Shown piece by piece: positions 2,127 to 52,271 of a stretch of 64,000 bases of DNA. The notes under the pieces were generated by a model. It was not told the origin of the DNA. It searched no databases and worked only from the letters and a program-made list of their open reading frames with translations. This DNA comes from Paraspadella gotoi. Lineage: Eukaryota > Animalia > Chaetognatha. Made by a program: the position numbers and the translations under genes. The stretch is taken from NCBI GenBank assembly GCA_051294375.1, contig CM119263.1:21498494-21562493 (forward strand), written 5' to 3'. How positions within the stretch are numbered: the first letter of the stretch is position 1; the number at the start of each line of letters is the position of its first letter.

Positions 2127-2358
2127 TGTGGTATATTCACACCACCTCACGTCCAAAACCATTGGCTGAGAGGGGGAACACACCATCCCAGGCGTTGTGT
2201 TCCATCCACATTCCTAACGACTTACCTTTGCGTTGGCAAAGCGTCCTAGGGTAACCGCGCCAGTGACTGGAGGCGTCACTGGGGGTCAAAAGCCCCCAAA
2301 GCCAACAGTGAGATGCCCCATCCCAATGGGCATCACAGGCAACCCGGCTGTTGCCATA
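2127..2358 (+). mobile_element. Solo LTR, family A (twister-carrying miniature LTR retroelement), decayed copy
   Basis: Reverse-complement match over its whole length to the LTRs at 39505-39762, 40001-40254, 49916-50170 and 50405-50659. Termini TGTGG...GCCATA. Possible ATAT target duplication with an eroded 5' end. Confidence 0.85.
2232..2306 (+). ncRNA. Degenerate type-P5 twister ribozyme (family A); GA+T1' segment deleted
   Basis: gttggc-aaa-gcg-[agaccg missing]-tcctaggg-TAA-ccgc-GC-cagtgac/gtcactg-gggg-T-CAA-AAGC-cccc-aaa-gccaac. It lacks the catalytic GA and has CGG>CAA in loop 4, so it is predicted inactive. Confidence 0.7.
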
Positions 2359-3241: not shown

Positions 3242-3497
3242 TGTGGCGGATCCTAAATTCGCCTCCCGTAGCTTGTTAAAACTCATCTCGTCACATTGGC
3301 TTGAACAGCGAAGTACCCGTTCACCAACCGTGAGTTCCGGGTTCAATCCCCTCACGATCACGCTGGTTAAAGTGTGCTGGTGACGGCATAAACACGACAG
3401 TGACATGGGGTGGTCACTGCAGGTCCAAAGCCCTGAGCGCCAGCTGACGGGAGATGCCTCACACCTCAGGCTTCACACATGTCCCCCCGTTGCCATA
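3242..3497 (+). mobile_element. Solo LTR, family B (tRNA-like B-box + twister)
   Basis: Reverse-complement match to 39131-39408 and 49547-49817. Termini TGTGGCG...TTGCCATA. Flanks AAGG/AAGT (3 of 4 match as a TSD). GGGTTCAATCCC at 3339-3350. Confidence 0.85.
3362..3444 (+). ncRNA. Type-P5 twister ribozyme (family B) with two core substitutions
   Basis: gctgg(P5)-ttaaa-gtgt(P2')-GC[consensus GA]-TGG(T1')-tgacggca(P1)-TAA-acac(P2)-GA[consensus GC]-cagtgac/gtcactg(P3)-cagg-T-CCA-AAGC-cctg(P4)-agcg-ccagc(P5'). Confidence 0.8.
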
Positions 3498-20910: not shown

Positions 20911-20945
<35 letters not shown>

Positions 20946-21062
20946 GAAGAAAGAAAAGAAAAAATAAAGAAAGAGAGAAAGAAAAAAAGAAAGAAAGAAA
21001 GAATAAATGAAAGAAAGAAAGATAGAAAGACAGACATAAACATAAATAGTTATATATGTCAT

Positions 21063-21125: not shown

Positions 21126-21154
21126 GCTTATTTATTAAATGAATGAATAATTTT

Positions 21155-21155
<1 letters not shown>

Positions 21156-21250
<95 letters not shown>
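21156..21250. repeat. (TAGA)n microsatellite
   Basis: Direct inspection. Confidence 0.95.
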
Positions 21251-31410: not shown

Positions 31411-33200
31411 AGAGAGAGGTTTTTAAACTTTCTTCGACGCCTAAACCTTTTTTTTATTTGGGATTTTTGAAAAGATAAAAGGAGAAAAAAAAGGTCGGTT
31501 GTGGAAATGGTGATGATATCGAGCATCTCCGACCTGAAGAGACCCGAAACCTTTTCAGCCGATGAGTTAACCTATTTTTATGCTGTTTTCTGTTTTAGTG
31601 CAAAAAGGATTAAATTAAAAAAAGAATGAACAGATCGACGAAAACCAAGGAAACAAGGAGGGAACGAACGAACGAACGAACGACGAACGAACGAACGAAC
31701 GAACGAACGAACGAACGAACGAACGAAGGAAGGAAGGAAGGAAGGAACGAACAAATGAACGAACGAACGAACGAACGAACGAACGAACGAACGAACGAAC
31801 GAACGAACTTTTGATCACGTGACAAGAGCGAATTCCGATCAAACTTCATTCTGCTTTTCGTAGTTATCGTCGGGGGACTCCAAAGTCCGTACACTTAATC
31901 TATTCATCCTTCTCCCTTCTTTTTCCTTCCAAATCTCGATTTCGAGGAGAAGAGAAAAAGTGATTAGAAAATCGGCGAAAAGATTTTGACCGAAAGAAGA
32001 GGAGACGAATGTGAAAGGGAGGGAGAGGGTTGCTGAGGTGGACGGGGAAAAGAGAGGGTGGTGGGTGGGAAGTGAATAGTAGTTGTGATAGCTGAGAAGA
32101 GAAAACTGATTGTAACTCGGCGACGTCGGTGGCTGAGTGGAGCTCCCGTTGGAGCTGAATGGAGCCTGAATGGAGCTCCCGTTGAGTTGAATGTGGTGGA
32201 AAGGGGCGGTGGCGGCGGTGGGCGGCGATGGGCGGCGATGTGCGGCGGTGCGCGAAAAAGGAAGACGGGACGAAGTATTTCAATGAAAAGAACGAAATGA
32301 AAAGAAGTATAAAAGGCGCAAACAATGCACAACGAAAATCCTGGCTTTGATTTTAGAAAAGGATTCAATCTTAAAACAAGAAATATTACCAGAAGTGATA
32401 TAAAAGTGCATCCATAAAATTGACACAAAAGTATGTAAAGGAAACTAATTATTATTTTACGGAAAACACATGGAAAAAGCTAAACAACCATCTTTCCAGA
32501 ACGATGCACCTTCTCTGTTAAATCTGAACGATCGCTTTTGTTTCGTTCCTTCTTCGTTAGCGAGACTTCTACTCGTCCTTCTTTTCTTTACTTGTTCTCA
32601 GTCCGGTTTCCTCCCTTCTACAATTTCCCCCCTCACTCCTCCCTCCCTCCCTCCCTCCCTCCTTTTGCCTTGGGACGTTCGGATTACTTGCCGGTCATTT
32701 TAAACCGTAAAATAATTGGGTCCTCGGCCATTTCTGGCCGCGAGAATCAGAGAGCCACGGCGGGTCGACGTGCGGCTGAGCTGACGCCGCTGACCTGGCG
32801 TCGATGCCACAGACCGACGCAAAGTTGGAGCGAATTTGTTGCGATCGAAGGGAAGATAAATCGTAGATGAATTGTTGATGATATGTAAGGAAACCGTTCG
32901 CGGTTTGAATGTATAGGGGGAGGTGGGCCTTTAGATTCTTTTTCATGACTCATTTTCGGAGAGAATGCGGATATTAAAATGAAGCAGGACTGAGAGTTTC
33001 AATTTAGAATAACAACAACGACAACAACAACCAACTCCTTCAAGAAAATTCGAATTCGAAGAAAAAAAAAGAAGTTCGACTTTTTTTCGCAAGTAGGAAA
33101 AACCCGAAAGGAAGCCAAGAAAAAAAAAGTTTTTTTCTTTTTCCCTAAAATAAAGAAAAAAAAAGGTGTAATTCGAAAGATACAACAAACAGGGCGGGAT

Positions 33201-33290
<90 letters not shown>

Positions 33291-33604
33291 TTTCTGTCTC
33301 ACTTTTTTTTTTATTTCTTTATATTTGGAATTGCCTCCTTTGTCGCACCGTTTTTTTCCTTTATTCTTTTTCCTTATTTTTAGAAAGGATAAAAAAAAAA
33401 GGAGCGGAACGCCCTGGATCCTTTTTTCTTATACAAAACACGATAACCGAAGTGACCGAGGTCACGTGGAAAGAAGAGGATGACGACGATGATGATGAAG
33501 CGATGACGAAGACGACGACGAAAATGACGATGGCGACGACCTCCAAATTTGATCGATAGACGAATTACCATCCTGAAGTCATTTCTATGATTTAATTCAG
33601 CCTT

Positions 33605-33652
<48 letters not shown>

Positions 33653-33654
33653 CT

Positions 33655-33722
<68 letters not shown>

Positions 33723-34862
33723 CTCTCTCTCTTTCTCTCCTCTCTCTCAGAATTTAAAAATAACACAGAGGCTCTTGTTGTCGGCCCTCGCTGATTTTAT
33801 TTTCCATTTCGCGGTCAAAATTGTCGTCGTTAGTTTCTTCGTCGTCGTCATCTTGGTTGTTTCTGTCGTGGAAAACTGTTCATGCTCCATGTTCATGTCA
33901 TGTTCATGTTCATGTTCATGTTCATGTTCATGTAGTTTCGCTTCTTAACGTTTTTATTAACAGTTAAAGTAGATTTCATTTATCTCTTCCATTCTACCAT
34001 TTGTTGTATCTTCATTTTTGTCGTTTACCTTCTCGTCCTCATTGTCATTGTCCCTCATTAACTTAAGTGAACTTCATGTTCATCGTTGTCATCTTTCTTT
34101 ACTAATTGTCATGTTCATCGTCGTCATTCCATCGTCTTGCCGCGAAAACCTTTTCTTTCTCAATTCGCGATATTAACGGAAAACCAGTGGCGGCGGCCGA
34201 TGAAAGGTGACAGTTTTACCACCGTTAACCAGCGCTTTTTCGCTTATTTCCGGCTCATTTTCGACTCAGGTTTCCGGCGTCCTTTCCAGCGACACGACGC
34301 CGACTTCGTTTGTTTTTATTTCTTGTTTTTCATTTTGTTTGAGTGAGAGAAAAAAGAGAGAGTAAGGGAGCAACATTTGTCAGATCAGATAAGGTAAATT
34401 CCCTTCCAAAGAGATGTCTCCTTTCTTAAGCCCCGGAATCGTCTACCGGATGCCACCCAATTTAAATGTCACAGGGACTGGAATTTGTGAACGCCGTAAA
34501 GGCGAGCGATCTGATAAACACAAAAATTTTATCAAAACTAATCTCACCGTTTCCTTTCACAACAATCGAAACTGTATCAAAATTGAAATAATCTTTTCGT
34601 CACCGTTTAATTTCGGATAAACCAATTTGTTTGTTCTGCCGCAAAACGTGGGGTTTCTTATTCTCTCTCTCTCTCGCTCTCCTCTCTCTCTCTCCTCTCT
34701 CTACTTTTTTTTCTCTCTCTCTCTTTTTTTCGTCTTCTCTCTTTTTTTCCTCTCTCTCTCTCTTCTCTCTCTCTCTCTTAAATTTGTTTCGTTCCTTCTA
34801 ACGTCCGCTCAAAGATTTAGACTAATCCGCGTCAGAAGAAACGTTTCTCTTTTCTCCTCGTA

Positions 34863-34950
<88 letters not shown>

Positions 34951-35901
34951 CTTTCTCCGTTTTAGCCTATGCATTTTTCGGTTAAAACTTTTTTCAAAGA
35001 CCGAGGAAATAAATCTCGTCCTTGGTTAAATTACAAAAAGTCGCCACAATTGTGTTAATCCGGCGTCGTCATCGTCATCGTAAGTCGTCGTGCCGTCGTT
35101 GTCCTCCCCTTCATTCCTAACCCGCCCCCTCGGCCGAACAAATTGAACTCGCATCAACGTAATTCTGTGTTCTATGACGCGAAAAAAGCGAGAACCGTTT
35201 TGCCGACAAGCGGCCGACAGAGTGACGACAGCGCGTCCGCCAAGCCGACCTTCGCACTCAAAAAACGTCCGCCTTTGCCCCCGAAATCTCAACTCCCTTT
35301 TTTTATGTTCTGTCGTGAAATGATCTTTGAGGAGCTCCGTCCTCTCTCTCATATGACCGTGTTTGACCAAAATTTAACTTCGTTTGACTCTGACCTCCCG
35401 TGGACTCGTTACGCGCTTTTTTCCGCCATTTTTTCATTTCCATGTTTTTGACCTCGAGTCGTGACTTCTGCTCGACGTTCACGGTGACCTTTTGAAGGGT
35501 CATTCGTAGTCACGTGAACGTCACGTTGACGAGATCTGGGTAAAACGAGAGAGAATAAATGATAAGAAAGAAAGAGAAATTAAGTATGAATAAGATTTAA
35601 TTAAAAATTAAGATGAGAAAGTGAGACAATTCAAATGTTCAAGGAGAAAGAGACGGTGCGTTAATCAGAATCGCGGGAAAGAGAATTCACGATTTCCCAA
35701 ATCAATTTGAGGCCGTGAGTCATCAAGGGAAAGGCACGCGTCTCCACTATAAAATCTACTACGAGTTTTTCGAGGTCACAAATCCAAGATTTGTAGACCT
35801 TACTCTAAACCCTCACGGCCTTACGGCCTCACAGCCTCACTTCTAAGGAATATTGCGTCGGCAGGCGTCGTAACCAGAGGTACAACCTCTCTCTCTCTCT
35901 G

Positions 35902-35980
<79 letters not shown>

Positions 35981-36823
35981 GGCCAAAGTGAAAAATTCAT
36001 GAAGATAAAACACAATGACAAGAACATCCAAGAATCCACCAACCCTATTAACCCTCAACCTGATCGCATCAAATTGAGACGCTGGAGAAAACCACTTGGC
36101 GCCGGCGAAGACTCGCGGCGTTGTCGGTGGAAAAGAGGTCGACGCCGGCGTCGCTCATCTTAAGAGTCTGTATCTCAGTGGGCGTGGCATCGTCGCCATC
36201 TTGTGGCAACCTTGGGCGCCGCCATTTCGAGCGAAACCTCACCCTTAGGAGCTCTTTCTTGAAGCCGCGTGCGGGATTGCCGACCGGTAGCGAAGAAGCG
36301 ACTCCCCATCTTTTCTGTCCGACAAAGAAGACGCCGATTCGTCTCTTGGCGCCCAAAGTTTCTTCCGGATTCGAGTCCAAAAAAAAATCACCGGAATGAC
36401 CCGGGCGAGTGGCATCGCTATGTGGCCCTGACGAGTGGTAAAGGGGACGGTTTAGTAGTAAGTGGTATTAATGGACAATATAGATTTAGCAAGAACTCTC
36501 CAGTTGCCGAGTCAAAAGCCTGAAATCGTGAGGGGACATAAGTATTTCATCGGCGTGGAAATAATAGCGCCGTTTTGTGGTCAGACGCGCGTCTTACGCA
36601 CGACGCTCCACTCCCGCAACCCCCCGCCCAACTAAACACCCCCCCCCCCCACGATTTCGGACTCAGGAAAAATCCCTCGGGTGAATTTTGGGTCGACAAC
36701 AATTGATTCGGGTCAAAAGGGAAAAGAGACTGGAAAGAAAAGAAAGAAAGAAACAATGAAGAAGAAAGAAAGAAAGAGCTGAGGAGAAAAGAAAGCAGAG
36801 AGAGAGAGGAGAGAGAGACGATG

Positions 36824-36875
<52 letters not shown>

Positions 36876-39130
36876 AGAAGACGAGAGAAATTGAGTCTAA
36901 AACGGATGCGGCAACCAAGTGTGAACGGTCGCGTGATGAAAGATTGGGGGAAGGAGAGGGGAGGCCGCAACGGAGTGCTTGAATGAAGAAGGAAAAAAAA
37001 AAAGAAAGAAGGAAAGAAAGTAAAATTTCCTCCATGAAGAAAATTGGAAAGGAATGGTCCAATCTCTCACGAGTCACGACTACCAACCGCCAACGAAAAC
37101 GGGTCAGGATACGGCAGAAGTCATCCAAAAATGGGTCGTCAATTGAAAAAATGAGCCGTCGGAAAAATGGTGAAAAAATGGAGCGATCGCATCGAGATCC
37201 AATCTGGACCATATTGTAATGATGATCAATCCTTTTGAAAGAGGTCATCCATTCCTCGTTAAGGTCGTCCATCTCCACGAGGGGTCTCACGTCTCGTGTT
37301 GGGGTCAGAGACGGTTACATTTTTTCTCCAAAAACCGACTCGACGATGACGATGATGACAGCAACGACGGACGTCGGACGACGTTCGACGAAACCGGATC
37401 TCACCCCGAATTCGCGAGACGTAAAAACGAGCCGCTCGCTTTTTTGGCGGCCAAAAATGGTCGTTGCTGCCCGAGAGGGGGACGTTCCGCCGGCCCCCCC
37501 AATCACTATTCGATGACCACCACGACGCGTCCAACGCCTCTCTCTTTCCCCGAGGAGCGTCTCGCGAGGTCAAGGGTCGCGCCAAGGTCGAGTCAAGCGT
37601 CGGTAGTTTTAGGAAGGAAAAAACATTGTCGAGGTCGGGAAAGGTTAAGCGAGGTGGGCGGAAACGGACGCGAGAAAGAAAAAAAAGAGGATAAAATTAA
37701 AAGAGTTGAAACGAAAGAAAAGAGACGAAGAAGAATGAAAAACAAAAAAAAATCAATGCCAAAAGTATTACAAAAATTTAAAAAAATCGTAATATTTCGT
37801 GAATGCTGATATCAAAATCTATCAAATACAAATAATGATAAGTCATCAACCGTTTAATATATTATTTAAATATTAATCAATTATGCTCCCTGCTTTTTTC
37901 GGCTCATGAAAATAAAAGCGTCTTCTCATCATTCGTTGTCACCGACTCTATCATTTTTTATCTCCTTCTTCTCCTCCCCCCCCTAAAAATAAAAACCATC
38001 CCCTCTAGTTCCTACCCGCTCAACCCCCCCCCCACGGAAGTGACAGGACGGTGGCAATCGATTTCCAGTCATGTTCCCAAGTCAAAGTCTCACGTTGCCC
38101 GAGGCAGGTCACATGATCTTCGGTCTCATTCGTCGTCATTCAAAAAGTCAAATCTTCGAACTATTCATGCCGGATACAGGTTGTGTTGTTGATTGTCGTC
38201 CGTCGTCATCGTCGTCGTCGTCGTCTCATTCGCTTCCTCCCGTCGTTCGGTCACTGTCCGGAGCACTTTTTACCCGCTGCGTGCCACTGTGCAATCCGCC
38301 GCCGCCGCCGCAGCCAATGGATGTTCCCACATCGGCTGCGCTGAGGCTGACGCTTGTTACCAATGGTATGAACGCTTCGGTCGACGGTTGGTCATTTCGT
38401 ATAGCTCCACGCGCAAAAAGAGAGAGAAGAGAGAGAGGGAGGCATATAGTTGACTTTCTGTTAGAGAAAGAGAGAGAGAGAGATGAGGAGATGAAGAGAG
38501 AGAGAGAGAGGACGAGAGAGAGAGGGAGAGAGAGAGAGAGAGATTTTGAAATAAAAGTTATTGTTAAAGATATTTTGTAACGAACTGAAAAAGTTTAAAG
38601 AGGGACGCAAGAAAATTTAGTATTGTGCAAATTTTTCACAAAACTATCACTGCTAAGACCCGATTTGCAGCCACACGGTATCTCTTTGAAAACAACAAAC
38701 AAGAACAACAACAACAACAACAAGGAAAAGCCAAAAATGACGGAAACGACTTGCGCTTTTTTCCGTTCTTTCTCAGCCAGCGCGATCCCTGAGAGATAAG
38801 AATTGTAACAAGGAGAACGAATCTCTCTCTCTCCTGCTTTCTTTTCCTTCTCAGCTGTAAAGGCTTTGACCATCGAGCACAGCCGAGAACCAAGCCAGCT
38901 GCTGTCTCAGAAGGCAGTAGAGAAAAGTTGCCGGTCGATTTTTCAAACGAAACCTGAATTCCCCCTTAAACCGAAAAATCCCAACCCCCAAACTGGTGGT
39001 TAGGAAGATTTTAGCAGAGAGGAGAAGAGAGAGAGTACAAGGCCAAATAGTGGAATGGGGAGAAAGCAACGTGAAATCAACGCGATCGATTTGAAACCAA
39101 GAAGATTTTATTCGTCCCCACCCAAGCTAT

Positions 39131-39408
39131 TATGGCAACGGAGGACATGTGTGATGCCTGGGGGTGTGCAGGCATCTCCTGACAAGCTGGCCGCTTCAGG
39201 GCTTTGGACTGTGCAGTGGCCACCCCATGTCACTGGCGTGTTATAGCGAACACCATTCACACTTCACCATCACACTTTTAACCGGCGTGACCGTGAGGGG
39301 ATTGAACCGGAAACTCACGGTTGGTAACGAGTACTTAAGCTGTCCAAGCCCAATAGGACGAGCTGAGTTCACCAAGCTATACGGGAGGCGAATTTAGGAT
39401 TCGCCACA
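39131..39408 (-). mobile_element. Solo LTR, family B, perfect CTAT target-site duplication
   Basis: ctat|tatggcaac...ttcgccaca|ctat; homologous to 3242-3497. Confidence 0.9.
39186..39286 (-). ncRNA. Type-P5 twister ribozyme, family B (indel-noisy copy)
   Basis: Same locus as the cleaner 49600-49695 copy. Confidence 0.65.
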
Positions 39409-39556
39409 CTATATTTCTTTCACAACTGACTTGGTGATTTTCTTTCATTGTTTCTCCTTATCGATTATTTTTCTCTTCTCCCTTTATTTCGATTTTTTTC
39501 GTTGTATGCAACATCCGGGTTGCCTGTGTATTGCTCTTGGGATGGGGCATCTCACT

Positions 39557-39635
39557 GTTGCTTGGGGGCTTCCGACCCTCATTGACGCCTTCAGTCACTG
39601 GGCGCGGTTACCCAGGACGGTCTTGCTTTGCCAAC
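39557..39635 (-). ncRNA. Type-P5 twister ribozyme in the 3' LTR (family A)
   Basis: Plus strand shows ggggGCTT-CCG-A-ccct...GC-gcgg-TTA-cccagga-CGG-TC, the reverse complement of the twister core. Confidence 0.7.
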
Positions 39636-40053
39636 GCAGAGGAAAGTCGATTAGGACTGTGGATGGAAACACACGCCTGGGATGTTTATGTATCCCCCTC
39701 GAGGCCCATGGCTATTGGCTGAACGATCCGTGAGACGTGAGGTGTGTGAATATACCACCACAGGATCCCCTGCCAAGACGTCACTCAGGTTCCTCAAGCC
39801 TAAGAGGTGTCTGACAAGACTGTTACCACCAGTGTGAGAGAGAGAGCTAATGTGAGTTGTGGGCATAGGAAGTTTGTGTAGCAGACCCCAGGGGCATAGG
39901 GCGTTTGTTTGTAACGTACCCAAAGTCGGCAGGGGCATAGGCGTTTGTCGTAAACGTACCTGAGGAAGTTGCGAGTTTTGATAGTACGGGCCTCACTACT
40001 TATGGCAAAAGCCAGGGTACTTGTGATGCCCATTGGGATGGGGCATCTCCACT

Positions 40054-40135
40054 GTTAGCTTTGTGGGGTCTTCCGACCCTCAGTGACGATCCAGTCACTG
40101 GCGCGGTTACCCTGGTACGGTCTCGCTTTGCCAAC
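40054..40135 (-). ncRNA. Type-P5 twister ribozyme in the 5' LTR (family A)
   Basis: Reverse complement of GA-CCG-taccaggg-TAA-ccgc-GC-cagtgac..gtcactg-aggg-T-CGG-AAG(a)C-ccc. Confidence 0.7.
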
Positions 40136-40594
40136 GCAGAGGAAGTCGTTTAGGACTGTGGATGGACACAACATCTGGGATAGTGTGTTCCCCCTCTGAG
40201 CCAATAGTATGGCTGAACGATCGTGGACGTGGGGGTGTGAATAGACCACCCACAGTTGTCCGGCTTTCAACTAAATTGGACCAGTAGATCGTATCGAGGT
40301 TAATAGTATCCGTTACTTGCAATGGACATGACCAATGTCAAAAATACACAAGCATATCGTGAGTTGCATCACGGATCTCGTGTACTAAGAGCATGAAGTC
40401 CAGTACAAACTCAATCAATTTAAAAATATAGAATTTGTAATATATAATTAATGAATATTAAAAAATTTTAAACTTAAAAATAGTGAAATAAGGTAATTTT
40501 GCCAATTTCATAGAAATTTCTTGGGAATTTTTGCAATATTAAACAAATACAAAAATAATTTTCAAAGCCAAATCCGCGGGATGCGCCGTCAGTC

Positions 40595-40710
40595 TAAGAT
40601 TCACGTGACCGCGTTTCTCAAATGACCGCCCCCTACGAAAAAATCACGTGACTTTGCGGGACTTCTTGATCCACGTTGATTTGCGCTTCTTCGTTCACGT
40701 GACCATCGAG
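40595..40710. promoter_or_regulatory. Cluster of TCACGTGAC (E-box/CLEAR-like) motifs at the edge of a GC-rich island
   Basis: tcacgtgac at 40601, 40644 and 40695; four TCACGTGA copies in the duplicate at 51023-51119. Confidence 0.5.
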
Positions 40711-41950
40711 TCTCGAATCCCGTGATTCTAAAAACGTCGATGGACGAAGAGGATTAAACGAGCGGCGGCGGCGCGGCGCGCGGCGGCGTCGAAGCGGTGG
40801 TGAGGGGCGCGGCGGTGGTGCGTGGTGAGGCAGAGCTGCGAGGAACGACGGAAGAGCAGATGGCATCGAGTTTCTCCAACATGAAATTCTGATTTTTTTA
40901 AGAGATAGACAGGTATCAGAGAAAGAAGAGAAAGACAAGAGAGAGAGAATAGGGAAAAAAATGATTTTAAAAATATTTAAAACTCCTTCCACAGAACTGA
41001 TAGATAAACTTGACGAACTTTATTATAAATTCAAAAAGACACACTAAAAAAATTAACTCAAAGATCCACAACAACATCCAGCGCGTTATAAAGTACGACC
41101 CACAAGTACGACGATGACCTCAAATCATACAACGACCATTTTACGACAACAGCAACACAATAACGAAAAAAGACGAACGAGGGGATCCCGACGATCGTGA
41201 AAAAGCGACGATGACCGCGAATTTCAGCCTCATTAGCATACGCGTTGTCACGGACCCTCGGTCATCGAGGATCCGTGAAAAGTGAAAGGAGGAGGAGGAG
41301 CGGAGGAGGAGGCAGGGGAGCAGGAACCCCGGAGTGCGTCGGTCGCCTCCGGTTTTATCGGACGACTTCCTGCTGACGCCAGATGACGGAGAAAAACTTG
41401 CGTCTAGTCGTTCGTCAAGGAGACGCCGAGAATCGTAAAACAAAGAGAGGAGAGACGGAAGTCGTTTGATTCGATAGCGGAAAGAAGTTTTGTTGTTTTT
41501 TCTTTTTTGTTTCTTTTTTTAAAATTTCTTAAACGGTTTGATGAGAGGCTCATTAGAGATAATATGTCATTGACTGTATGATGGTATATATGTCATCAAT
41601 TCAGGGAGATATAATTTTTATTTCATTATTTCAAATGTTTTTCTCATATTTTATTATCCTTTAAATTTTTTTCGAACCTAAAACGTTTGTTCTTTTTTAC
41701 GTTATTTGGCTTAATTATTAATACTCTTTCAATCTACATTCAAGAGGCGCGTTTGAAATTCTGCTATTTTTCAACAACCGGTCAGAAATAATCCTAATCC
41801 ATATAACTTTCACGAACCGTCGTCTGCGTCGTCGTCGTCGTCGTCGTCGTCCCCAAATCTAGCAACGACTTTTTCGGTTCCAGTGACTCAGTTGTGCCAT
41901 CAGTTTTGGACGCCTCTTGACGTCTTTGTGGTTTGGCGGCGCGGGGCGGC

Positions 41951-41963: not shown

Positions 41964-43661
41964 TTAATTGGTGATGATATCGAAGCATCTCCGACCTGAA
42001 GAGACCCGAAAACCTTTTCAGCCGATGAGTTAACCTATTTTTTATCTGATTTTTCTGTTTTAGTGCAAAAAGGATTAAATTAAAAAAGAATGAACAGATC
42101 GACGAAAAACCAAGGAAACAAGGGGGAACGAACGAAACGAAACGAACGAACGAGACGAACGAAAACGAACGACGAACGAAACGAACGAACGAACGAACGA
42201 ACGAACGAACGAACTTTTGATCACGTGACAGAGCGAAACTCCGATCAAAACTTCATTCTGCTTTTCGTAGTTATCGTCGTGGGACTCCAAAGTCCGTACA
42301 CTTAATCTATTCATCCCTCTCCCTTCTTTTTCCTTCCAAATCTCGATTTCCGAGGAGAAGAGAAAAAGTGATTAGAAAATCGGAGCGAAAAGATTTTGAC
42401 CGAAAGAAGAGGAGACGAATGTGAAAGGGAGGGAGAGGGTTGCTGAGGTGGACGGGGAAAAGAGAGGGTAGGTGGGTGGGAAGTGAATAGTAGTTGTGAT
42501 AGCTGAGAAGAGAAAACTGATTGTAACTACGGCGACGTCGGTGGCTGAGTGGAGCTCCCGTTGGAGCTGAATGGAGCTGAATGGAGCTCCCGTTGGAGCT
42601 GAAATGTGGTGGAAAGGGGCGGTGGGCGGCGATGGGCGGCGATGGGCGGCGGTGGCGCGATAAAGGAAAGACGGGACGAAGTATTTCAATGAAAAGAACG
42701 AAATGAAAAGAAGTATAAAAGGCGCAAACAAATGCACAACGAAAATCCTGGCTTTGATTTTAGAAAAGGGATTCAATCTTAAAACAAGAAATACTACCAA
42801 GAAGTGATATAAAAGTGCATCCAATAAAATTGACACAAAAGTATGTAAAGGAAACTAATTATTATTTTACGGAAAACAATTGGAAAAAGCTAAACAACCA
42901 TCTTTCCAGAACGATGCACCTTCTCTGTTAAATCTGAACGATCGCTTTTGGTTTCGTTCCTTCTTCGTTAGCGAGACTTCTACTCGCCCTTCTTTTCTTT
43001 ACTTGTTCTCAGTCCGCGTTTCCTCCCTTCTACAATTTCCCCCCTCACTCCTCCCTCCCTCCCTCCCTCCTTTTCGCCTTGGGACGTTCGATTCTTCCGG
43101 TCATTTTAAAACCGTAGAAATAAATTGGGTCCTCGGCCATTTTCTGGCCGCAGAATCAGAGAGCCACGGCGGCGTCGAACGCTGCGGCTGGCTGACGCCG
43201 CTGCGACCCTGGCGTCCGATGCCACAGACCGACGCAAAGTTGGAAGCGAAATTTGTTGCGATCGAAGGGAAGATAAATCGTGATGAATTGTGATGAATTG
43301 TAAGAAACCGTTGCGGGTTTGAATGTATAGGGGGAGGTGGGCCTTTTGATTCTTTTCATGACTCATTTTCGGACGAGAATGCGGATATAAAATGAAGCAG
43401 GACGAGAGTTTCAATTTGAGAATAACAACAACGACAACAACAACCAACTCCTTCAAGAAAATTCGAATTCGAAGAAAAAAAAAAGAAAAAAAAAGAAGTT
43501 CGACTTTTTTTTCGCAAAGAGAGAAAAACCCGAAGGAAACAAGAAAGAAAAAAGTTTTTTTCTTTTTCCCTAAAAAATAAAAGAAAAAAAGGGTTATTCG
43601 AAAGATACCAACAGAACAAGGGGGCATAGTCAGAGAAGGAGAGAGAGAGAGAAGAGCAGAG

Positions 43662-43705
<44 letters not shown>

Positions 43706-43764
43706 TTTCTGTCTCACTTTTTTTTTATTTCTTTATATTTGGAATTGCCTCCTTTGTCGCACGT

Positions 43765-43775
43765 ATCTCTCTCTT
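43765..43775 (+). other. Probable SMRTbell adapter remnant abutting a 25-N gap
   Basis: atctctctctt immediately before the Ns; tcctttgtcgcac repeated on both sides of the gap; absent in unit 1 (about 33345). Confidence 0.6.
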
Positions 43776-44066
43776 NNNNNNNNNNNNNNNNNNNNNNNNN
43801 TCCTTTGTCGCACCGTTTTTTTCCTTTATTCTTTTTCCTTATTTTTAGAAAGGATAAAAAAAGGAGCGGAACGCCCTGGATCCTTTTTTCTTATACAAAA
43901 CACGATAACCGAAGTGACACGAGGTCACGTGGAAAGAAGAGGATGACGACGATGATGATGAAGACGATGACGAAGACGACGACGACGAAAATGACGATGG
44001 CGACGACCTCCAAATTTGATCGATTAACGAATTACATCCTGAAGTCATTTCTATGATTTAATTCAG

Positions 44067-44138
<72 letters not shown>

Positions 44139-45074
44139 AATTTAAAAATAACAACAGAGGCTAATTGTTGTCGGCGCCTCGCTGATTTGTTTTTCCATTT
44201 CCGGTCAAAATTGTCGTCGTTAGTTTCTTCGTCGTCGTCATCGTGGTTGTTTTTGTCGTGGAAAACTGTTCATGTTCATGTTCATGTTCATGTTCATGTT
44301 CATGTTCATGTTCATGTTCATGTAGTTTCGCTCTTAACGTTTTTATTAAACAGTTAAAGTTGATTTCAATTTATCTCTTCCATTCTACCAATTTGTTGTA
44401 TCTTCATTTTTGTCGTTTATCCTTCTCGTCCTCATTGTCATTGTCCCTCATTAACTTAAGTGAACTTCATGTTCATCGTTGTCATCTTTCTTTTACTAAT
44501 TGTCATGTTCATCGTCGTCATCATCGTCGTCATTCCATCGTCTTTGCCGCGAAAACCTTTTCTTTCTCAATTCGCGATATTAACGAAAACCAGTGGCGGC
44601 GGCCGATGAAAGGTGACAGTTTTACCACCGTTAACCGGCGCTTTTTCCGCCTCATTTCCGGGCTCATTTTCGACGCAGGTTTCCGGCGTCCTTTTCCAGC
44701 GACGCGACGCCGACTTCGTTTGTTTTTATTCTTGTTTTTCATTTTGTTTGAGTGAGAGAAAAAGAGAGAGTAAGGGAGCAAGACATTTGTCAGATCAGAT
44801 AAGGTAAATTCCCTTCCAAAGAGCATGGTCTCCTTTCTCTTAAGCCTCGAATCGTCTACCGGATGCCACCCAAATTTAAATGTCACAGGGTGACTGAATT
44901 TGTGAACGCCGTAAAGGCGAGCGATTCTGATAAACACAAAAATTTTATCAAAACTAATCTCACCGTTTCCTTTCACAACAATCGAAACTGTATCAAAATT
45001 GAAATAATCTTTTCGTCACCGGTTTAATTTCGATAAACCAATTTGTTTGTTCTGCCGCACAACGTGGGGTTTCT

Positions 45075-45109
<35 letters not shown>

Positions 45110-45180
45110 CTCTACTTTTTTTTTCTTCTCGCCTTTCTCTCTCTCTCTTTTCTCTCTCGTTCTCTCTCTCTCTCTCTTCT

Positions 45181-45212
<32 letters not shown>

Positions 45213-45297
45213 CTTAAATTTGTTTTCGTTCCTTCTAACGTCCGCCAAAGAATTTAGACTAATCCGCGTCAGAAACGTTTTCTCTTTCTCCTCGTAA

Positions 45298-45391
<94 letters not shown>

Positions 45392-46357
45392 CTTTCTCCG
45401 TTTTATCCTATGCATTTTTTCGGTTAAAAACTTTTTTCAAAGACCGAGGAATTAAATGCTCGTCCTTGGTTTAAATTACAAAAAGTCGCCACAATTGTGT
45501 TAATCCGGCGTCGTCATCGTCATCGTAGTTGTCGTCGTCGCCGTCGTCGTCCTCCCCTTCATTCCTGACCCCGCCCCCTCGCGAAACAAATGAACTCGCA
45601 TCACGTAATTCCTGTTTTATGACGCGAAAAAGCGAGAACCGTTTTGCCCGACAAGCGGCCGACAGAGTGACCGACAGCGCGTCCGCCAAGCCGACCTTCG
45701 CACTCAGAAACGTCGCCTTTGCCCCCGAAATCTCAACTCCCTTTTTTTATGATCCGTCGTGAAATGATCTTTGAGGATCTCCGTCCTCTCTCTCATATGA
45801 CCCGTCGTTTGACCAAAATTGACCTTTCGTTTGACCTCTGACCTCCCGTGGACTCGATTACGCGGCTTTTTTCCGCCATTTTTTTCATTTCCATGTTTTT
45901 GACCTCGAGTCGTTGACTTTCTGCTTCGACGTTCACGTGACGCTTTTGAAGGGTCATTCGTAGTCACGTGAACGTCACGTTGACGGAGATCTGGTAACAA
46001 CCGAGAGAGAATAAATGATAAAGAAAGAAAGAGAAAATTAAGTATGAATAAGATTTAATTAAAATTAAGATGAGAAGTGAGACAATTCAAATGTTCAAGG
46101 AAGAAAGAGACGGTGCGTTAATCAGAATCGCGGGAAAGAGAAATTCACGATTTCCCAAATCAATTTGAGGCCGTGAGTCCATCAAGGGAAAGGCACGCGT
46201 CTCCACTATAAATCTACTACGAGTTTTTCGAGGTTCACAAATCACAAGATTTGTAGACCTTTACTCTAAACCCCTCACGGCCTTACGGCCTCACAGCCTC
46301 ACTTCTAAGGAATATTGCGTCGCCAGGCGTCGTAACCAGAGAGTAGCAACCTCTCTC

Positions 46358-46462
<105 letters not shown>

Positions 46463-47279
46463 CCAAAGGTGAAAAATTCATGAAGATAAACACAATGACA
46501 AGAACATCCCAAGATCCCACCAACCCCTTATTAACCCTCACCTGATCGCAATCAAATTGAGACGCTGGAGAAATCCACTTGGCGCCGGGCGAAGACTCGC
46601 GGCGTTGTCGGCGGAAAAAGGTCGACGCCGGCGTCGCTCATCTTAAGAGTCTGTATCTCAGTGGGCGTGGCATCGTCGCCATCTTGCTGGCAACCTTGGG
46701 GCGCCGCCATTTCGAGCGAAAACCTCACCCTTAGGAGCTCTTTCTTGAAGCCGCGTGCGGGCTTGCCCGACCGGTAGCGAAAGAAGCGACTCGCCCATCT
46801 TTTTCTGTCCGACAAAGACGACGCCTATTCGTCTCTTGGCGCCCAAAGTTTCTTCCGGATTTCGAGTCCAAAAAAAATCACCGGAAATGACCCGGGCGAG
46901 TGGCAATCGCAATGTGGCGAGTGGTAAAAGGGACGGTTTAGTAGTAAGTGGTATTAATGGACAATATAGATTTAGCAAGAACTCTCCAGTTGCCGAGTCA
47001 AAAGCCTGAAATCGTGAGGGGACATAAGTACTTCATCGGCGTGGAAATAATAGCGCCGTTTTGTGGTCAGACGCGCGTCTTACGCACGACGCTCCACTCC
47101 CGCAACCCCCCGCCCAACTAAACACCCCCCCCCCACGATTTCGGACTCAGGAAAAATCCCTCGGGTGAATTTTGGGTCGACAACAATTGATTTCGGGTCA
47201 AAAGGGAAAAGAGACTGGAAAGAAAAGAAAGAAAGAAACAATGAAAGAAAGAAAAGAAAGAAAGAGCGAGAGAAAAGAA

Positions 47280-47372
<93 letters not shown>

Positions 47373-48928
47373 AATTGAGTCTAAAACGGATGCGGCAACC
47401 AAAGTGTGAAGGTCGCGTGATGAAGATGGGGGAAGGAGAGGGAGGCCGCAACGGAGTGCTTGAATGAAGAAGGAAAAAAAAAAAGAAAGAAGGAAAGAAA
47501 GTAAAATTCCTCCATGAAGAAAAGTTGGAAAGGAATGGTCCAATCTCTCACGAGTCACGACTACCAACCGCCAACGAAAACGGGTCAGGATACGGTCAAG
47601 AAGTCATCCCAAAAATGGGTCGTCAACTCTCGCGAAAAATGAGGGCCGTCGGAAAAATGGTGAAAAAAATGGAGCGATCGTAATCGAGATCCAATCTGGA
47701 CCATATTGTAATGATGATCAATCCTTTTGAAGAGGTCATCCATTTCTCGTTAAGGTCGTCCATCTCCACGAGGGGTCTCCACGTCTCGTGTTGGGTCAGA
47801 GACGGTTACATTTTTTCTCCAAAAACGACTCGACGATGACGATGATGACAGCAAAGACGACGACGTCGACGACGTCGACGACCCGGATTCTCACCCCGAA
47901 TTCGCGAGACGTAAAAACGAGCCGCTCGCGTTTTGGGGGCAAAAAAGGTCGTTGCTGCCCGAGAGGGGACGTTTCCCGCCGCCCCCCCAATCACTATCGA
48001 TGACCACCACGACGGTCCACGCCTCTCTCTTTCCCCGAGGAGCGTCTCGCGAGGTCAAAGGTCGCGTCAAGGTCGAGTCAAGGTCGGTAGTTTTAGAAGG
48101 AAAAAACATTGTCGAGGTCGGGAAAGGTTAAGCGAGGTGGGCGGTAAACGGACGCGAGAAAGAAAAAAAAGAGGATAAATAAAAGAGTTGGAAACGAAAA
48201 AAAAGAGAGGAAGAAGAATGAAAAACAAAAAAAAATCAATGCAAAGTATTACAAAAATTAAAAATCGTAATTATTTTCGTGGAATGCTGATATCAAAATC
48301 TATCAAATACAAATAATAATAAGTCATCCAACCGTTTAAATATTATTATTTAAATATTAATCAATTATGCTCCCTGTTTTTTTCGCTCATGAAAATAAAG
48401 CGTCTTTCTCATCATTCGTTGTCACCGACTCTACATTTTTTATCTCCTCTTCTCCTCCCCCCCCAAAAAAAACCATCCCCCTCTTAGTTCCTACCCCCGT
48501 CACCCCCCCCACGGAGAGTGACAGACGGTGGCATCGATTTCCAGTCATTGTTCCCAAAGTCAAAGTCTCACGTGACCCGAGGAGGTCACATGATCTTCGG
48601 GTCTCATTCGTCGTCATCAAAAAGTCAAATCTTCGAACTCATTCATGCGGTAATGTTGTTGTTGTTGTTGTCGTCGTCGTCATCGTCGTCGTCGTCGTCT
48701 CATTCGCTTCCTCCCGTCGTTCGGTCACTGTCCGGAGCGACTTTTTACCCGCTGCGTGCACTGTGCAATCCGCCGCCGCCGCCGCAGCAATGGATGTCCA
48801 CATTCGCTGGCGCTGAGGCTGACGCTGTTACAATGTATGACGCTTCGGTCGACGGTTGGTCATTCGTATAGCTCCACGGGCAGAAAGAGAGAGATAGAGA
48901 GAGAGGGAGGCATATAGTTGACTTTCTT

Positions 48929-48975
<47 letters not shown>

Positions 48976-49546: not shown

Positions 49547-49817
49547 TATGGCAACGGAGGGACATGTGTGATGCCTGGGGTGTGAGGCATCTCCCGACAG
49601 CTGGCGCTCAGGGCTTTGGACTTGCAGTGGCCACCCCATGTCACTGGCGTGTTTATGCCGACACCATCACACTTCACCATCACACTTTAACCAGCGTGAC
49701 CGTGAGGGGATTGAACCCGGAACTCACGGTTGGTGAACGAGTACTTAGCTGTCCAAGCCAATAGGACGAGCTGAGTTTCACCAAGCTATACGGGAGGCGA
49801 ATTTAGGATTCGCCACA
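49547..49817 (-). mobile_element. Solo LTR, family B (duplicate of 39131-39408), CTAT TSD
   Basis: ctat|tatggcaac...ttcgccaca|ctat. Confidence 0.9.
49600..49695 (-). ncRNA. Type-P5 twister ribozyme, family B, core intact
   Basis: Sense: gctgg-tta-[aagtgtgatggtg dup]-aa-gtgt-GA-TGG-tgtcggca-TAA-acac-GC-cagtg..cactg-caag-T-CCA-AAGC-cctg-agcg-ccagc. Confidence 0.85.
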
Positions 49818-49967
49818 CTATATTCTTTTCACAACTGACTTTGGTGATTTTCTTTCATTTTCTCCTTTATCCGATTATTTTTTTCTCTTCTCCTTTATTT
49901 CGATTTTTTTCATTGTATGGCAACAGCCGGGTTGCCTGTGATGCTCTTTGGGATGGGGCATCTCACT

Positions 49968-50048
49968 GTTGGCTTTGGGGGCTTCCGACCCTCAGTGACG
50001 CCTTCAGTCACTGGCGCGGTTACCCTAGGACGGTCTCGCTTTGCCAAC
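49968..50048 (-). ncRNA. Type-P5 twister ribozyme, family A, cleanest copy; predicted cleavage between 50022 and 50021
   Basis: Sense: gttggc(P5)-aaa-gcga(P2')-GA-CCG(T1')-tcctaggg(P1)-TAA-ccgc(P2)-GC-cagtgac/gtcactg(P3)-aggg-T-CGG-AAGC-cccc(P4)-aaa-gccaac(P5'). Confidence 0.85.
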
Positions 50049-50456
50049 GCAGAGGAAAGTCATTAGGACTGTGGATGGAACACAACGCCTGGGATGTTAT
50101 GTTCCCCCTCTGAGCCCATGGTATTGGCTGAACGATCGTGGACGTGAGGTGGTGTGAATATACCACCACAGGATCCCTGGGCCAAGACGTCACTCAGGTT
50201 CCTCAAGCCTAAGAAGTGTCTGACAAGACTGTTACCACAGTGTGAGAGAGAGAGCTAATGTGAGTTGTGGGGGCATAGGAGTTTGTTGTAGCAGACCCCA
50301 GGGACATAGGCGTTTGTTGTAACGTACCCAAAGTCGGCAGGGCATAGGCGTTTGTCGTAACGTACCCTGAGAAGGTTGCGAGTTTGATAGTAGGGCTCAC
50401 TACTTATGGCAAAAGGCGGGTTACTTGTGATGCCCATTGGGATGGGGCATCTCACT

Positions 50457-50537
50457 GTTAGCTTTGTGGGCTTCCGACCCTCAGTGACGCATCCAGTCAC
50501 TGGCGCGGTTACCCTGGGACGGTCTCGCTTTGCCAAC
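50457..50537 (-). ncRNA. Type-P5 twister ribozyme in the 5' LTR (family A); predicted cleavage between 50511 and 50510
   Basis: Sense: GA-CCG-tcccaggg-TAA-ccgc-GC-cagtgac..gtcactg-aggg-T-CGG-AAGC-ccac. Confidence 0.78.
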
Positions 50538-52222
50538 GCAGAGGGAAGTCGTTAGGACTGTGGATGGAACACAACATCTGGGATAGTGTGTTCCCCCTCT
50601 GAGCCAATAGTATTGGCTGAACGATCGTGGACGTGAGGTGGTGTGAATAGACCACCACAGTTGTCCGCTTTCTAACTATTGACCAGTAGATCGTATCGAG
50701 GTAATAGTATCCGTTACTGCATGGACATGACCAATTCAAAATACACAAGCATAATCGTGAGTTTGCATTCACGATCTCGTTGTACTGAAGAGCATGAAGT
50801 CCTAGTACAACTCAATCAATTAAAAATATAGAATTTGTAATATATAATTTTAATGAATATTAAAAAATTTTAAACTTAAAATAGTGAAATAAGTAATTTT
50901 GCAATTTTCATAGAAATTTTCTTGGAATTTTTGCAATATTTAGTTCCAGAGTTCGATTACAAACAAAGTACTAAAAATAATTTCAAAGGCCAAATCCGCG
51001 GGATGCGCCGTCAGTCTAAGATTCACGTGACCGCGTTTCTCAAATGACCGCTCTACGAAAAAATCACGTGACTTTTGGGACTCTTGAGTCACGTGATTGC
51101 GCTTCTTCGTTCACGTGACCATCCGAAGGTCGAATCCCGTGATTCTAAAAACGTCGATGGACGAAGAGATAAACGAGCGGCGGCGGCGGCGGCGGCGGCG
51201 GCGGCGTCGAAGGCGGTGGTTGAGGGGCGCCGGCGGTGGTGGCGGTGGTGGAGGCAAGAGCTGCGAGGAACGACGGAAGAGCAGATGGCATCGAGTTTCT
51301 CCAACATGAAATTCTGATTTTTTTAAGAGGATAGACAGTATCAGAGAAAGAGAGAGAAAGACAGAGAGAGAGAATAGGGAAAAAAATGATTTTAAAAATA
51401 TTTAAAACTCCTTCCACAGAACCTGATAGATAAAACTTGATCGAACTTTATTGATAAATTCAAAAAGGACACACTAAAAAATTAACCTCAAAGATCCCAC
51501 AACAACATCCAGCGCGTTATAAAGTACGACCCACAAGTACGAACGATGACCTCAAATCATAACAACGACCATTACGACAACAGCAACAACAATAACGAAA
51601 AAGGACGAACGAGGATCCCGACGAATCGTGAAAAGCGACGATGACCGCGAATTTCAGCCTCATTAGCATACGCGTGTCACGTGACCTCGGGTCATCGGAT
51701 CCGTGAAAAGTGAAAGGAGGAGGAGGAGGCGGAGGAGGAGGAGGAGGAGCAGACCCCGGATGCGTCGGTCGCTCCGTTTTTATCGACGACTTCCTGTGAC
51801 GCCAGATGACGGAGAAAAACTTGCGTCGAGGTCGTCGTCAAGGAGACGGAGAATCGTAAACAAAGAGAGGAGAGACGAAGTCGTTGATTCGATAGGAAAG
51901 AAGTTTTGTTGTTTTTTCTTTTTTGTTCTTTTTTTAAAATTTCTTAAACGGTGATGAGAGGCTCATTAGAGATAATATGTCATTGACTGTATGATGGTAT
52001 ATATTGTCATCAATCAGGAGATATAATTTTTATTCATTATTTCAAATGTTTTCTCATATTTTATTATCCTTTAAATTTTTTTTCGAACCTAAAACGTTTT
52101 GTTCTTTTTTACTTATTTGGCTTATTATTAATACTCTTTCAATCTACATTCAAGAGCGCGTTTGAAATTCTGTATTTTTCACAACCGGTCATAAATTAAT
52201 CCTAATCCATATAACTTTCACG

Positions 52223-52271
<49 letters not shown>

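What the first reader, a model, noticed from the sequence alone, without database searches (positions are those of the whole stretch)
39505..40254. Miniature LTR retroelement with a twister ribozyme in each LTR: a candidate 'twister retrozyme' that could release an about 0.5 kb circular RNA
Seen: two about 255 bp direct repeats, a 238 bp non-coding interior and a perfect GTTG TSD. Each LTR has, on the minus strand, the full type-P5 twister order P5-P2'-GA-CCG-P1-UAA-P2-GC-P3-P4(U-CGG-AAGC)-P5'. The two predicted cut sites are 499 nt apart here and 489 nt apart in the duplicate 49916-50659. Known: plant LTR retrozymes have this layout (4-bp TSD, non-coding, a ribozyme in each LTR, circular RNA intermediates) but use hammerheads. 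Twister leaves 5'-OH and 2',3'-cyclic phosphate ends, which are RtcB substrates, as in the engineered Tornado circularisation system. Inference: this is a non-autonomous, probably Ty3/Gypsy-mobilised element whose RNA is cut to unit length by twisters and circularised. I am not aware of a described LTR retrozyme that uses twister.
Basis: partly seen in the sequence, partly recalled or inferred. Interest (0 to 1): 0.92.

Follow-up and report, generated by a model that had tools for sequence, protein, structure and literature searches.

The report
LTR jumping element with twister ribozymes
This is one decayed copy of an abundant, small, protein-free jumping element whose two end repeats each carry a twister-type RNA fold predicted to cut itself, so it likely spreads through a small RNA circle as plant retrozymes do, but with a ribozyme class I did not find described for such elements.

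Summary
Two ~255-bp repeats flank a 238-bp non-coding interior with a GTTG duplication. The copy at these coordinates is an indel-ridden duplicate of 49916-50659, where the unit is 489 nt and the twisters are cleaner. The element behaves as an LTR element: fixed ends across many contigs in runs from three studies; a 4-bp target duplication at four insertions (14 of 16 bases); a solo LTR; a primer-site candidate on the ribozyme strand. Rfam gives only a weak twister-P1 hit (24.5 bits, cut-off 67). New here: a second LTR family 98 bp away shares both termini and carries a type-P5 twister with compensatory changes in 7 of 27 pairs, 2 of 3 in pseudoknot T1. Both families have a self-complementary 8-nt P1. 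Cleavage, expression and circles are untested; the predicted circle is not unusually structured; host and helper element are unknown. It works like a plant LTR retrozyme but is not a member (no hammerhead). The scan earlier noted P5 twisters in Penelope-type elements of other genomes, not in LTR elements.

The parts
39501..39504 (.). Left target-site duplication GTTG (copy A)
   Evidence: 4-bp register test
39505..39762 (-). 3' LTR of copy A (family 1; ribozyme strand is minus); indel-rich
39557..39635 (-). Damaged type-P5 twister; predicted cut after U at 39610
   Evidence: not a descriptor hit
39763..40000 (-). Non-coding interior (longest ATG frame 58 aa); primer-site candidate at its start, short purine run at its end
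40001..40254 (-). 5' LTR of copy A
40054..40135 (-). Type-P5 twister with an extra base in L4; predicted cut after U at 40109
   Evidence: (twister-P1, 18.4 bits, E 0.84)
40255..40258 (.). Right target-site duplication GTTG (copy A)
49916..50659 (-). Copy B of the same insertion, cleaner sequence: LTRs 49916-50170 and 50405-50659 (255 bp each, 21 substitutions, 0 indels), interior 234 bp
49968..50048 (-). Best family-1 twister: P5 GUUGGC/GCCAAC, P2 CCGC/GCGA, GA, T1 CCG/CGG, P1 UCCUAGGG, U^AA (U at 50022), T2 GC/GC, 7-bp P3, P4 GGG/CCC
   Evidence: (24.5 bits, E 0.014)
50457..50537 (-). Family-1 twister in the 5' LTR of copy B; predicted cut after U at 50511
50389..50402 (-). Primer-binding-site candidate, 2 nt after the 5' LTR; window copies begin TAG, nearly all read depth of the family begins TGG; tRNA not identified
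   Evidence: table 3 (place 50401, 4 of 4 runs)
50174..50179 (-). Weak polypurine-tract candidate, 3 nt before the 3' LTR
   Evidence: inconclusive
2127..2358 (+). Solo family-1 LTR with the same two ends; flanks ATAT/AAAT; twister broken by a deletion
49547..49817 (-). Solo family-2 LTR, CTAT/CTAT duplication, same termini as family 1, P5 twister with T1 UGG/CCA, P2 ACAC/GUGU, P1 UGUCGGCA (U at 49655); a 13-nt duplication displaces P5
39131..39408 (-). Duplicate (copy A block) of the solo family-2 LTR
3242..3497 (+). Second solo family-2 LTR; flanks ACTT/CCTT; P5, P3 and P4 intact, two core letters changed
   Evidence: (twister-P1, 20.8 bits, E 0.042)

Best explanation
This is a high-copy, protein-free LTR retroelement whose LTRs each hold a type-P5 twister fold that is predicted to self-cleave, which would release a 489-nt unit RNA that is likely circularised and reverse-transcribed by an unseen helper retrotransposon. 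Steps. SHOWN: fixed LTR ends, 4-bp target duplication, solo LTRs, non-coding interior, and a twister fold kept by compensatory changes between two LTR families. [quoted passage not shown] In the P5 permutation the two ends of the cut unit carry the two halves of one ribozyme and can pair (P5, P2, T1), holding the ends together for a host tRNA ligase. Cutting both LTRs at the same point removes the terminal redundancy that normal strand transfer needs, so a circular template is the simplest way to rebuild two LTRs from a tRNA primed at the primer site. A helper integrase, probably of a Ty3/Gypsy element, then inserts the cDNA with a 4-bp duplication. The copy in the window is an old insertion (LTRs 8% apart) and may itself be silent.
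For: Ends: loose ends pile up at 49916 (88, 100, 80, 22 contigs in X1, X2, X5, X9) and 50170 (46, 53, 46 in X1, X2, X5; no row shown for X9) with unrelated AT-rich flanks whose weak majority letters mostly read ATAT next to the end; depth falls from about 10^5 inside to under 10^2 in the flank in X1 (three studies; depth is no copy number). TSD: 14 of 16 bases match at 4 bp over four insertions (binomial p 3e-6 at match rate 0.3); lengths 2, 3, 5, 6, 7, 8 show no excess. Primer site: TGG start 2 nt after the 5' LTR in nearly all read depth, on the same strand as the ribozyme. Ribozyme: 88% of 135 cells pair, 7 of 27 pairs change on both sides, against 25-47% paired when partners are slid. Family-1 departures from the rice twister are tolerated one at a time in a published mutational scan: G44A 0.97, C26G/G48C 0.74, C27G/G47C 0.86, C20A/G35C 0.90 (PMC5113685 supplement, my column count). 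P1 is dispensable for twister cleavage (PMC5408937). The circle model and loss of the R repeat are those of plant retrozymes (PMC4918200).
Against: No Rfam hit at threshold. The covariation is effectively one comparison between two families, the structure was derived from these sequences, and the tool warns that both inflate the measures. The predicted circle is not more stable than shuffles and only 53-58% paired, whereas described retrozyme RNAs are over 70% paired (PMC4918200 section 10). The most stable predicted fold of the best family-1 twister forms P5 but misregisters P2 to P4. Family 1 has a C.A mismatch next to the active site and an A.C mismatch at the base of P4; the published activities are 2-hour end points in a type-P1 background and were not measured in combination. 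The polypurine tract is weak. The termini read TG...TA, not TG...CA. No helper element, no full-length family-2 element and no transcript were seen.
Confidence: 0.58

Rival explanations
1. The twister is active but the element travels as linear RNA, like an ordinary miniature LTR element. The ribozyme, perhaps inherited from the LTR of an autonomous parent, only trims one end of the transcript or cuts slowly enough to leave terminal redundancy.
For: The circle is not unusually structured. Twister variants trim the 5' end of the Perere-3 LINE RNA, and 'circular' does not occur in that paper's main text (PMC8501958). The very short P1 could make cutting slow.
Against: Two identical cut sites in one transcript give a unit without redundancy, which fits a circle better (PMC4918200). 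The P5 permutation puts pairing halves on both ends of the unit.
Confidence: 0.24
2. The twister fold is a relic: once functional, now a passenger in LTRs that spread by ordinary means.
For: All copies in the window are old; three of five family-1 twisters miss the descriptor; C.A mismatch in P2; low Rfam scores.
Against: Among the differences shown (40 of 112 rows) none falls in the core of the best family-1 twister; at the P5 and P1 defects of the 5' LTR most of the read depth carries the pairing letter. Two diverged families keep the core and both pseudoknots.
Confidence: 0.09
3. The repeats are pseudo-LTRs of a non-autonomous Penelope-like element, copied 1.5 times round an RNA template by a Penelope-type enzyme.
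For: Animal retrozymes are tied to Penelope-like elements (bioRxiv 10.64898/2026.07.22.740005); such an element has been mistaken for an LTR element before (MRC1, PMC8557442); unchecked scan notes report P5 twisters in Naiad pseudo-LTRs.
Against: Penelope-like insertions are described as strongly 5'-truncated, often inverted, with a 30-40 bp tail. Here both ends are fixed, lie over 100 nt from the cut site, are shared by two families, and carry a strict 4-bp duplication and a primer-site candidate.
Confidence: 0.05
4. The 255-bp unit is a short DNA transposon with 4-bp duplications, and the 750-bp element is a composite of two such units.
For: Each unit has a 5-6 bp imperfect terminal inverted repeat and terminal hairpins; solo units are common.
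Against: The interior is itself high-copy, there is no duplication at the inner junctions, a primer-site candidate sits at one junction, and a conserved ribozyme implies an RNA stage.
Confidence: 0.04

Closest known systems
Plant LTR retrozymes (Cervera et al. 2016, PMC4918200; passages and section 10 read)
   Same: Direct terminal repeats each with a self-cleaving motif, non-coding interior, 4-bp TSD, solo LTRs, primer site next to the LTR, no protein.
   Different: Type-P5 twister instead of type III hammerhead; smaller (LTR 255 vs 300-400 bp, unit 489 vs about 600-1000 nt); primer site does not look like the tRNA-Met type (Met sequence recalled); predicted circle not highly structured; RNA not yet seen; host not identified.
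Type-P5 twister ribozymes (Rfam clan CL00120; review PMC5408937, passages read; Roth et al. 2014 not read)
   Same: Order P5-P2'-GA-T1-P1-U^AA-P2-GC-P3-P4/L4-P5', both pseudoknots, core letters.
   Different: P1 is only an 8-nt self-complementary loop; family 1 has a C.A pair in P2; below Rfam thresholds; sits in an LTR.
Twister T-variants of the Perere-3 LINE in Schistosoma (PMC8501958, passages read)
   Same: Twister with reduced P1 inside a retrotransposon.
   Different: Non-LTR element, one ribozyme at the 5' end, no terminal repeats.
Animal non-LTR retrozymes and Penelope-like pseudo-LTRs (PMC7229834, PMC8557442, passages; bioRxiv 10.64898/2026.07.22.740005, first fifth)
   Same: Small ribozyme repeats with circular RNA; some hammerheads act as dimers.
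   Different: Tandem arrays, type I hammerheads, no LTR, primer site or polypurine tract, longer or absent duplications.
TRIM/SMART miniature LTR elements (as described in PMC4918200 and PMC11722881, passages)
   Same: Size, non-coding interior, dependence on a helper.
   Different: No ribozyme is described for them in the passages read.

Membership tests
Plant LTR retrozymes | Two direct terminal repeats around a non-coding interior | tested here: met
   255-bp repeats, 234-238 bp interior, longest ATG frame 37-58 aa
Plant LTR retrozymes | 4-bp target-site duplication | tested here: met
   14 of 16 bases over four insertions; other lengths no excess
Plant LTR retrozymes | Type III hammerhead in each LTR | tested here: not met
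   No hammerhead family listed down to E 10; the motif is a twister
Plant LTR retrozymes | Primer-binding site (tRNA-Met) after the 5' LTR | tested here: inconclusive
   TGG-starting site 2 nt after the LTR in the read majority; window copies read TAG; no host tRNA available (none in window)
Plant LTR retrozymes | Polypurine tract before the 3' LTR | tested here: inconclusive
   Only about 6 purines, 3 nt before the LTR
Plant LTR retrozymes | Solo LTRs in the genome | tested here: met
   2127-2358 with the same ends
Plant LTR retrozymes | Highly structured unit RNA | tested here: not met
   Circular fold z -0.76 and +0.19, 58% and 53% paired, 40 shuffles each, decayed copies
Plant LTR retrozymes | Linear and circular unit-length RNA in vivo | not testable with these tools
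   Only contigs were available; they cannot show ends or circles
Type-P5 twister ribozyme | Core letters (U^AA, GA, GC, U-NNN-AAGC) in P5 order | tested here: met
   Descriptor hits at 50022, 50511, 49655; 0 in 40 controls; damaged in copy A and in the solos at 2127 and 3242
Type-P5 twister ribozyme | Pseudoknots T1 (3 bp) and T2 (2 bp) | tested here: met
   T1 100% paired with 2 of 3 pairs compensatory; T2 90%
Type-P5 twister ribozyme | Stems P2, P4, P5 (and optional P3) | tested here: met
   85%, 70%, 93%, 97% of cells paired; one compensatory pair each in P2, P4, P5; only 3 of 6 P5 pairs were in register and counted
Type-P5 twister ribozyme | Stem P1 | tested here: inconclusive
   8 nt: 2 bp plus a 4-nt loop, no stable hairpin alone; self-duplex -11.0 and -9.5 kcal/mol
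Type-P5 twister ribozyme | Rfam covariance-model score at gathering threshold | tested here: not met
   0 hits; best twister-P1 24.5 bits vs 67.2; twister-P5 not listed
Type-P5 twister ribozyme | Self-cleavage at U^A | not testable with these tools
   Needs an in vitro assay
Penelope-like element pseudo-LTR | Frequent 5' truncation, inversions, 30-40 bp tail | tested here: not met
   Both ends fixed across contigs and in window copies; features
Ty3/Gypsy-mobilised non-autonomous element | Termini, primer site and purine tract shared with an autonomous Gypsy element | not testable with these tools
   No genome held; no Pfam hit at cut-off in 150 window frames

The most novel reading that the evidence does not exclude
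A whole group of LTR retroelements, outside the known plant hammerhead retrozymes, has independently adopted P5 twisters as a natural circle-making device with a built-in switch: the self-complementary 8-nt P1 lets the two LTR ribozymes of a precursor swap strands and cut as a dimer, while the single ribozyme re-formed in the finished 489-nt circle stays largely uncut. Transcription may come from a tRNA-type promoter in the LTR, and the autonomous helper may itself carry twister LTRs.
Probability: 0.25. Interest if true: 0.88.

Novelty: new variant of a known kind. Interest (0 to 1): 0.74.

Why it matters
LTR retrozymes are described with type III hammerheads, mainly in plants, and a July 2026 preprint still splits retrozymes into hammerhead-III LTR and hammerhead-I non-LTR types. 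A twister-bearing LTR element would show that the ribozyme class is interchangeable and that the cut-circularise-reverse-transcribe route arose more than once. It would give genomic twisters a second concrete job besides trimming LINE RNA, and be a natural counterpart of engineered twister circularisation. Two diverged families with thousands-fold read depth make every step testable: cleavage, monomer versus dimer, circle, primer tRNA, helper.

Tried and rejected
No whole genome is held, so copies could not be counted and no helper sought. Rfam: nothing at gathering score; cutting the stretch to favour the P5 model still returned twister-P1; one lower clan match was hidden and is unidentified. 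Rfam's type-P1 reading of 49954-50026 was rejected because its T1 partner (UGC) cannot pair with the loop CGG, while the upstream CCG pairs 3 of 3. Pattern scans for relatives: 0 loci in viral contigs and 0 in metagenome contigs. Expression: no RNA holder listed; run X9 is only guessed to be RNA and its depth profile follows the DNA runs, so it says nothing either way. Host identity: none of 150 frames scanned reached a Pfam cut-off (150 of 199 that passed a complexity filter outside the duplicated block, of 734 frames of 45 aa or more); motif counts gave no lineage. ARAGORN found no tRNA. TRF found no array in the element. One search used a misregistered structure string of mine; one search is the corrected count. 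Reading the neighbouring repeat as a tRNA-derived SINE was dropped: it has the same termini, a 4-bp duplication and a twister. Tyrosine-recombinase and Helitron readings were dropped because of the 4-bp duplication (their lack of one is recalled). A link to CsRn1-type Gypsy elements with a tRNA-Trp primer is recalled only; the one search listed one paper, not read.

Full report
OBSERVATION. The element lies in a 10.4-kb tandem duplicate. Copy A (the finding) differs from copy B (49916-50659) by 43 indel events, 40 of them single bases, and only 11 substitutions; the two LTRs of B differ by 21 substitutions and no indel. A and B are therefore one insertion, A is probably error-rich, and B (LTR 255 bp, interior 234 bp, unit 489 nt) is the copy to study. 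A solo unit with the same two ends lies at 2127-2358 on the other strand.

IT BEHAVES AS AN LTR ELEMENT. No genome is held, so I laid contigs of four public runs (three studies; X1 may be the assembly's source) on 49700-50900. In X1 depth is about 10^5 in the LTRs, 7,000-125,000 in the interior and about 65 in the left flank; the tool warns that this is no copy number, but LTR and interior are plainly both high-copy. Among the 24 loose-end rows shown (1600 more not shown) the largest piles are at 49916 (88, 100, 80, 22 contigs), 50170 (46, 53, 46) and 49817 (77, 78, 61, 14), with unrelated AT-rich flanks whose weak majority letters mostly read ATAT next to the end. With ends fixed by homology, four independent insertions in the window give GTTG/GTTG, ATAT/AAAT, CTAT/CTAT and ACTT/CCTT: 14 of 16 matches at 4 bp (p 3e-6 at an assumed match rate of 0.3), and no excess at 2, 3, 5, 6, 7 or 8 bp. 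On the minus strand the LTRs run TGTGG...CCATA, an imperfect 5-6 bp inverted repeat with TG...TA ends. Two bases after the 5' LTR the window copies read TAGTGAG, but at 50401 nearly all depth in 4 of 4 runs carries the letter that makes the start TGG, the position and start expected of a tRNA primer site (established knowledge). It lies on the ribozyme strand, which fixes the sense strand independently. The purine tract is weak. The interior has no frame over 58 aa.

THE RIBOZYME. Rfam finds nothing at threshold and a weak twister-P1 match at best (24.5 bits, E 0.014, cut-off 67.2). The P1 reading fails at pseudoknot T1; the P5 reading pairs it fully. A descriptor fixing only the core letters found three hits and none in 40 Markov controls: the two LTRs of B, and 49655. 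That third hit is in a neighbouring repeat 98 bp away, which turned out to be a second LTR family: same termini, its own 4-bp duplication, three copies at two loci. Its twister keeps the core and changes the stems in pairs: T1 UGG/CCA for CCG/CGG, P2 ACAC/GUGU for CCGC/GCGA, P4 CAGG/CCUG, P5 GCUGGU/GCCAGC, P1 UGUCGGCA for UCCUAGGG. On five natural copies (5 of the 8 in the window; left out were the damaged 39557 copy, the deleted solo and the copy-A duplicate of family 2) 88% of 135 cells pair and 7 of 27 pairs change on both sides; slid controls pair 25-47%. This is one two-family contrast on a structure derived from these sequences, so it is not a probability, but double changes inside a pseudoknot are hard to get without selection. 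Mapping family 1 on the rice twister scan (PMC5113685, whole main text and supplement rows; values read by counting columns), each departure is tolerated singly: G44A 0.97, C26G/G48C 0.74, C27G/G47C 0.86, C20A/G35C 0.90; for family 2, C27A/G47U 0.83 and C9A/G44U 0.63. These are 2-hour end points and hide rate losses. P1 is 8 nt in both families, forms no stable hairpin alone, and is self-complementary (-11.0 and -9.5 kcal/mol as a duplex). P1 can be deleted from twister without loss (PMC5408937), so a dimer is possible, not required.

AGAINST. The unit folded as a circle is no more stable than shuffles (z -0.76 for B, +0.19 for A; 58% and 53% paired), whereas described retrozyme RNAs are over 70% paired; the copies are decayed, which weakens this test. 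The best family-1 twister's lowest-energy fold misregisters P2-P4, though the program cannot form pseudoknots. No transcript, helper or full-length family-2 element was seen, and no relative was found in four pattern scans.

MECHANISM. Shown: LTR anatomy and a conserved twister fold. Inferred: transcription of the minus strand; cutting at both U^AA sites; a 489-nt unit with 5'-OH and cyclic-phosphate ends whose two ends carry the two halves of one P5 ribozyme and can pair; ligation by a host tRNA ligase (RtcB circularised hammerhead retrozyme monomers far better than self-ligation, PMC7229834 passages); tRNA-primed copying round the circle, which restores two LTRs although cleavage removed the terminal redundancy (model of PMC4918200); integration by a helper integrase. 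My rough odds: LTR element 0.9, selected twister fold 0.9, active in the family 0.8, circular intermediate 0.6; the whole 0.58. The main rival is an active twister with a linear intermediate (0.24).

COMPARISON AND NOVELTY. It works like a plant LTR retrozyme but fails membership on the hammerhead and on RNA structure. Ten full-text searches, of which 14, 28, 57 and 67 asked for twister or ribozyme with LTR or retrozyme, listed no paper whose title, abstract start or read passages describe a twister in an LTR. Twister is reported at the 5' end of Perere-3 and RTE LINEs and in viroid-like circles of metatranscriptomes (bioRxiv 10.1101/2022.07.19.500677, passages). I read passages only of PMC7761336, PMC5680766, PMC7229834, PMC6765202, PMC8501958, PMC5408937, PMC10085705, PMC9695139, PMC8557442, PMC7026644 and PMC11722881; passages and one section of PMC4918200; the first of five parts of bioRxiv 10.64898/2026.07.22.740005. 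Roth et al. 2014 and its list of twister loci were not seen, nor the supplements of the retrozyme papers, subscription journals or repeat libraries; any could hold such an element. Unchecked scan notes report P5 twisters, one possibly dimeric, in Penelope-type Naiad elements of other genomes; they raised the Penelope rival, which the fixed ends and 4-bp duplication argue against.

VERDICT. Real, high-copy, non-autonomous LTR element with a well-supported P5 twister fold in each LTR, and a sister family with the same design. New variant of a known kind; interest 0.74. Cleavage and circular RNA are the open, easily testable steps.

Noticed in passing
49547-49817 (-), 39131-39408 (-), 3242-3497 (+): Second high-copy LTR family (about 60% alike to family 1 over the LTR) with the same termini, a 4-bp duplication and a covarying P5 twister; only solo LTRs are in the window.
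   Followed up: yes
31505-41950 vs 41966-52367: 10.4-kb tandem duplicate at 90.5% identity. In the three stretches compared, 1-nt indels far outnumber substitutions, so it is probably an assembly or read-error artefact.
   Followed up: partly
2127-3497 and 49547-50659: At both loci a family-2 LTR lies just downstream of a family-1 LTR in the same orientation (883 and 98 bp). One contig in each of three runs also joins 49815 to 50404. Unexplained; may be chance or shared target preference.
   Followed up: no
LTR positions 54-98 on the ribozyme strand (e.g. 50562-50606): tRNA-type A-box and B-box look-alikes upstream of the twister; 5 to 10 of 300 shuffles did as well for four LTRs and 46 of 300 for the fifth; one of the four best pairs is a different site overlapping the ribozyme. 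Post hoc lead for polymerase III transcription.
   Followed up: partly
49916-49965 and 49547-49592 (-); 50140-50170 and 49790-49817 (-): Both families keep a hairpin just downstream of the twister, with one compensatory pair, and a hairpin at the LTR start with different sequences. Possible packaging or priming signals.
   Followed up: partly
50270-50370: Three imperfect copies of a roughly 30-nt motif in the interior.
   Followed up: no
50807 onwards; 6140-7027 vs 61290-62233; 18974-19746 vs 20678-21447: Another multi-copy repeat starts about 150 bp right of copy B; further dispersed or local repeats at 85-89% identity.
   Followed up: no
whole window: Microsatellite-rich eukaryote-like DNA, CpG observed/expected 1.19, six N gaps, no recognisable gene in the frames scanned.
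   Followed up: partly
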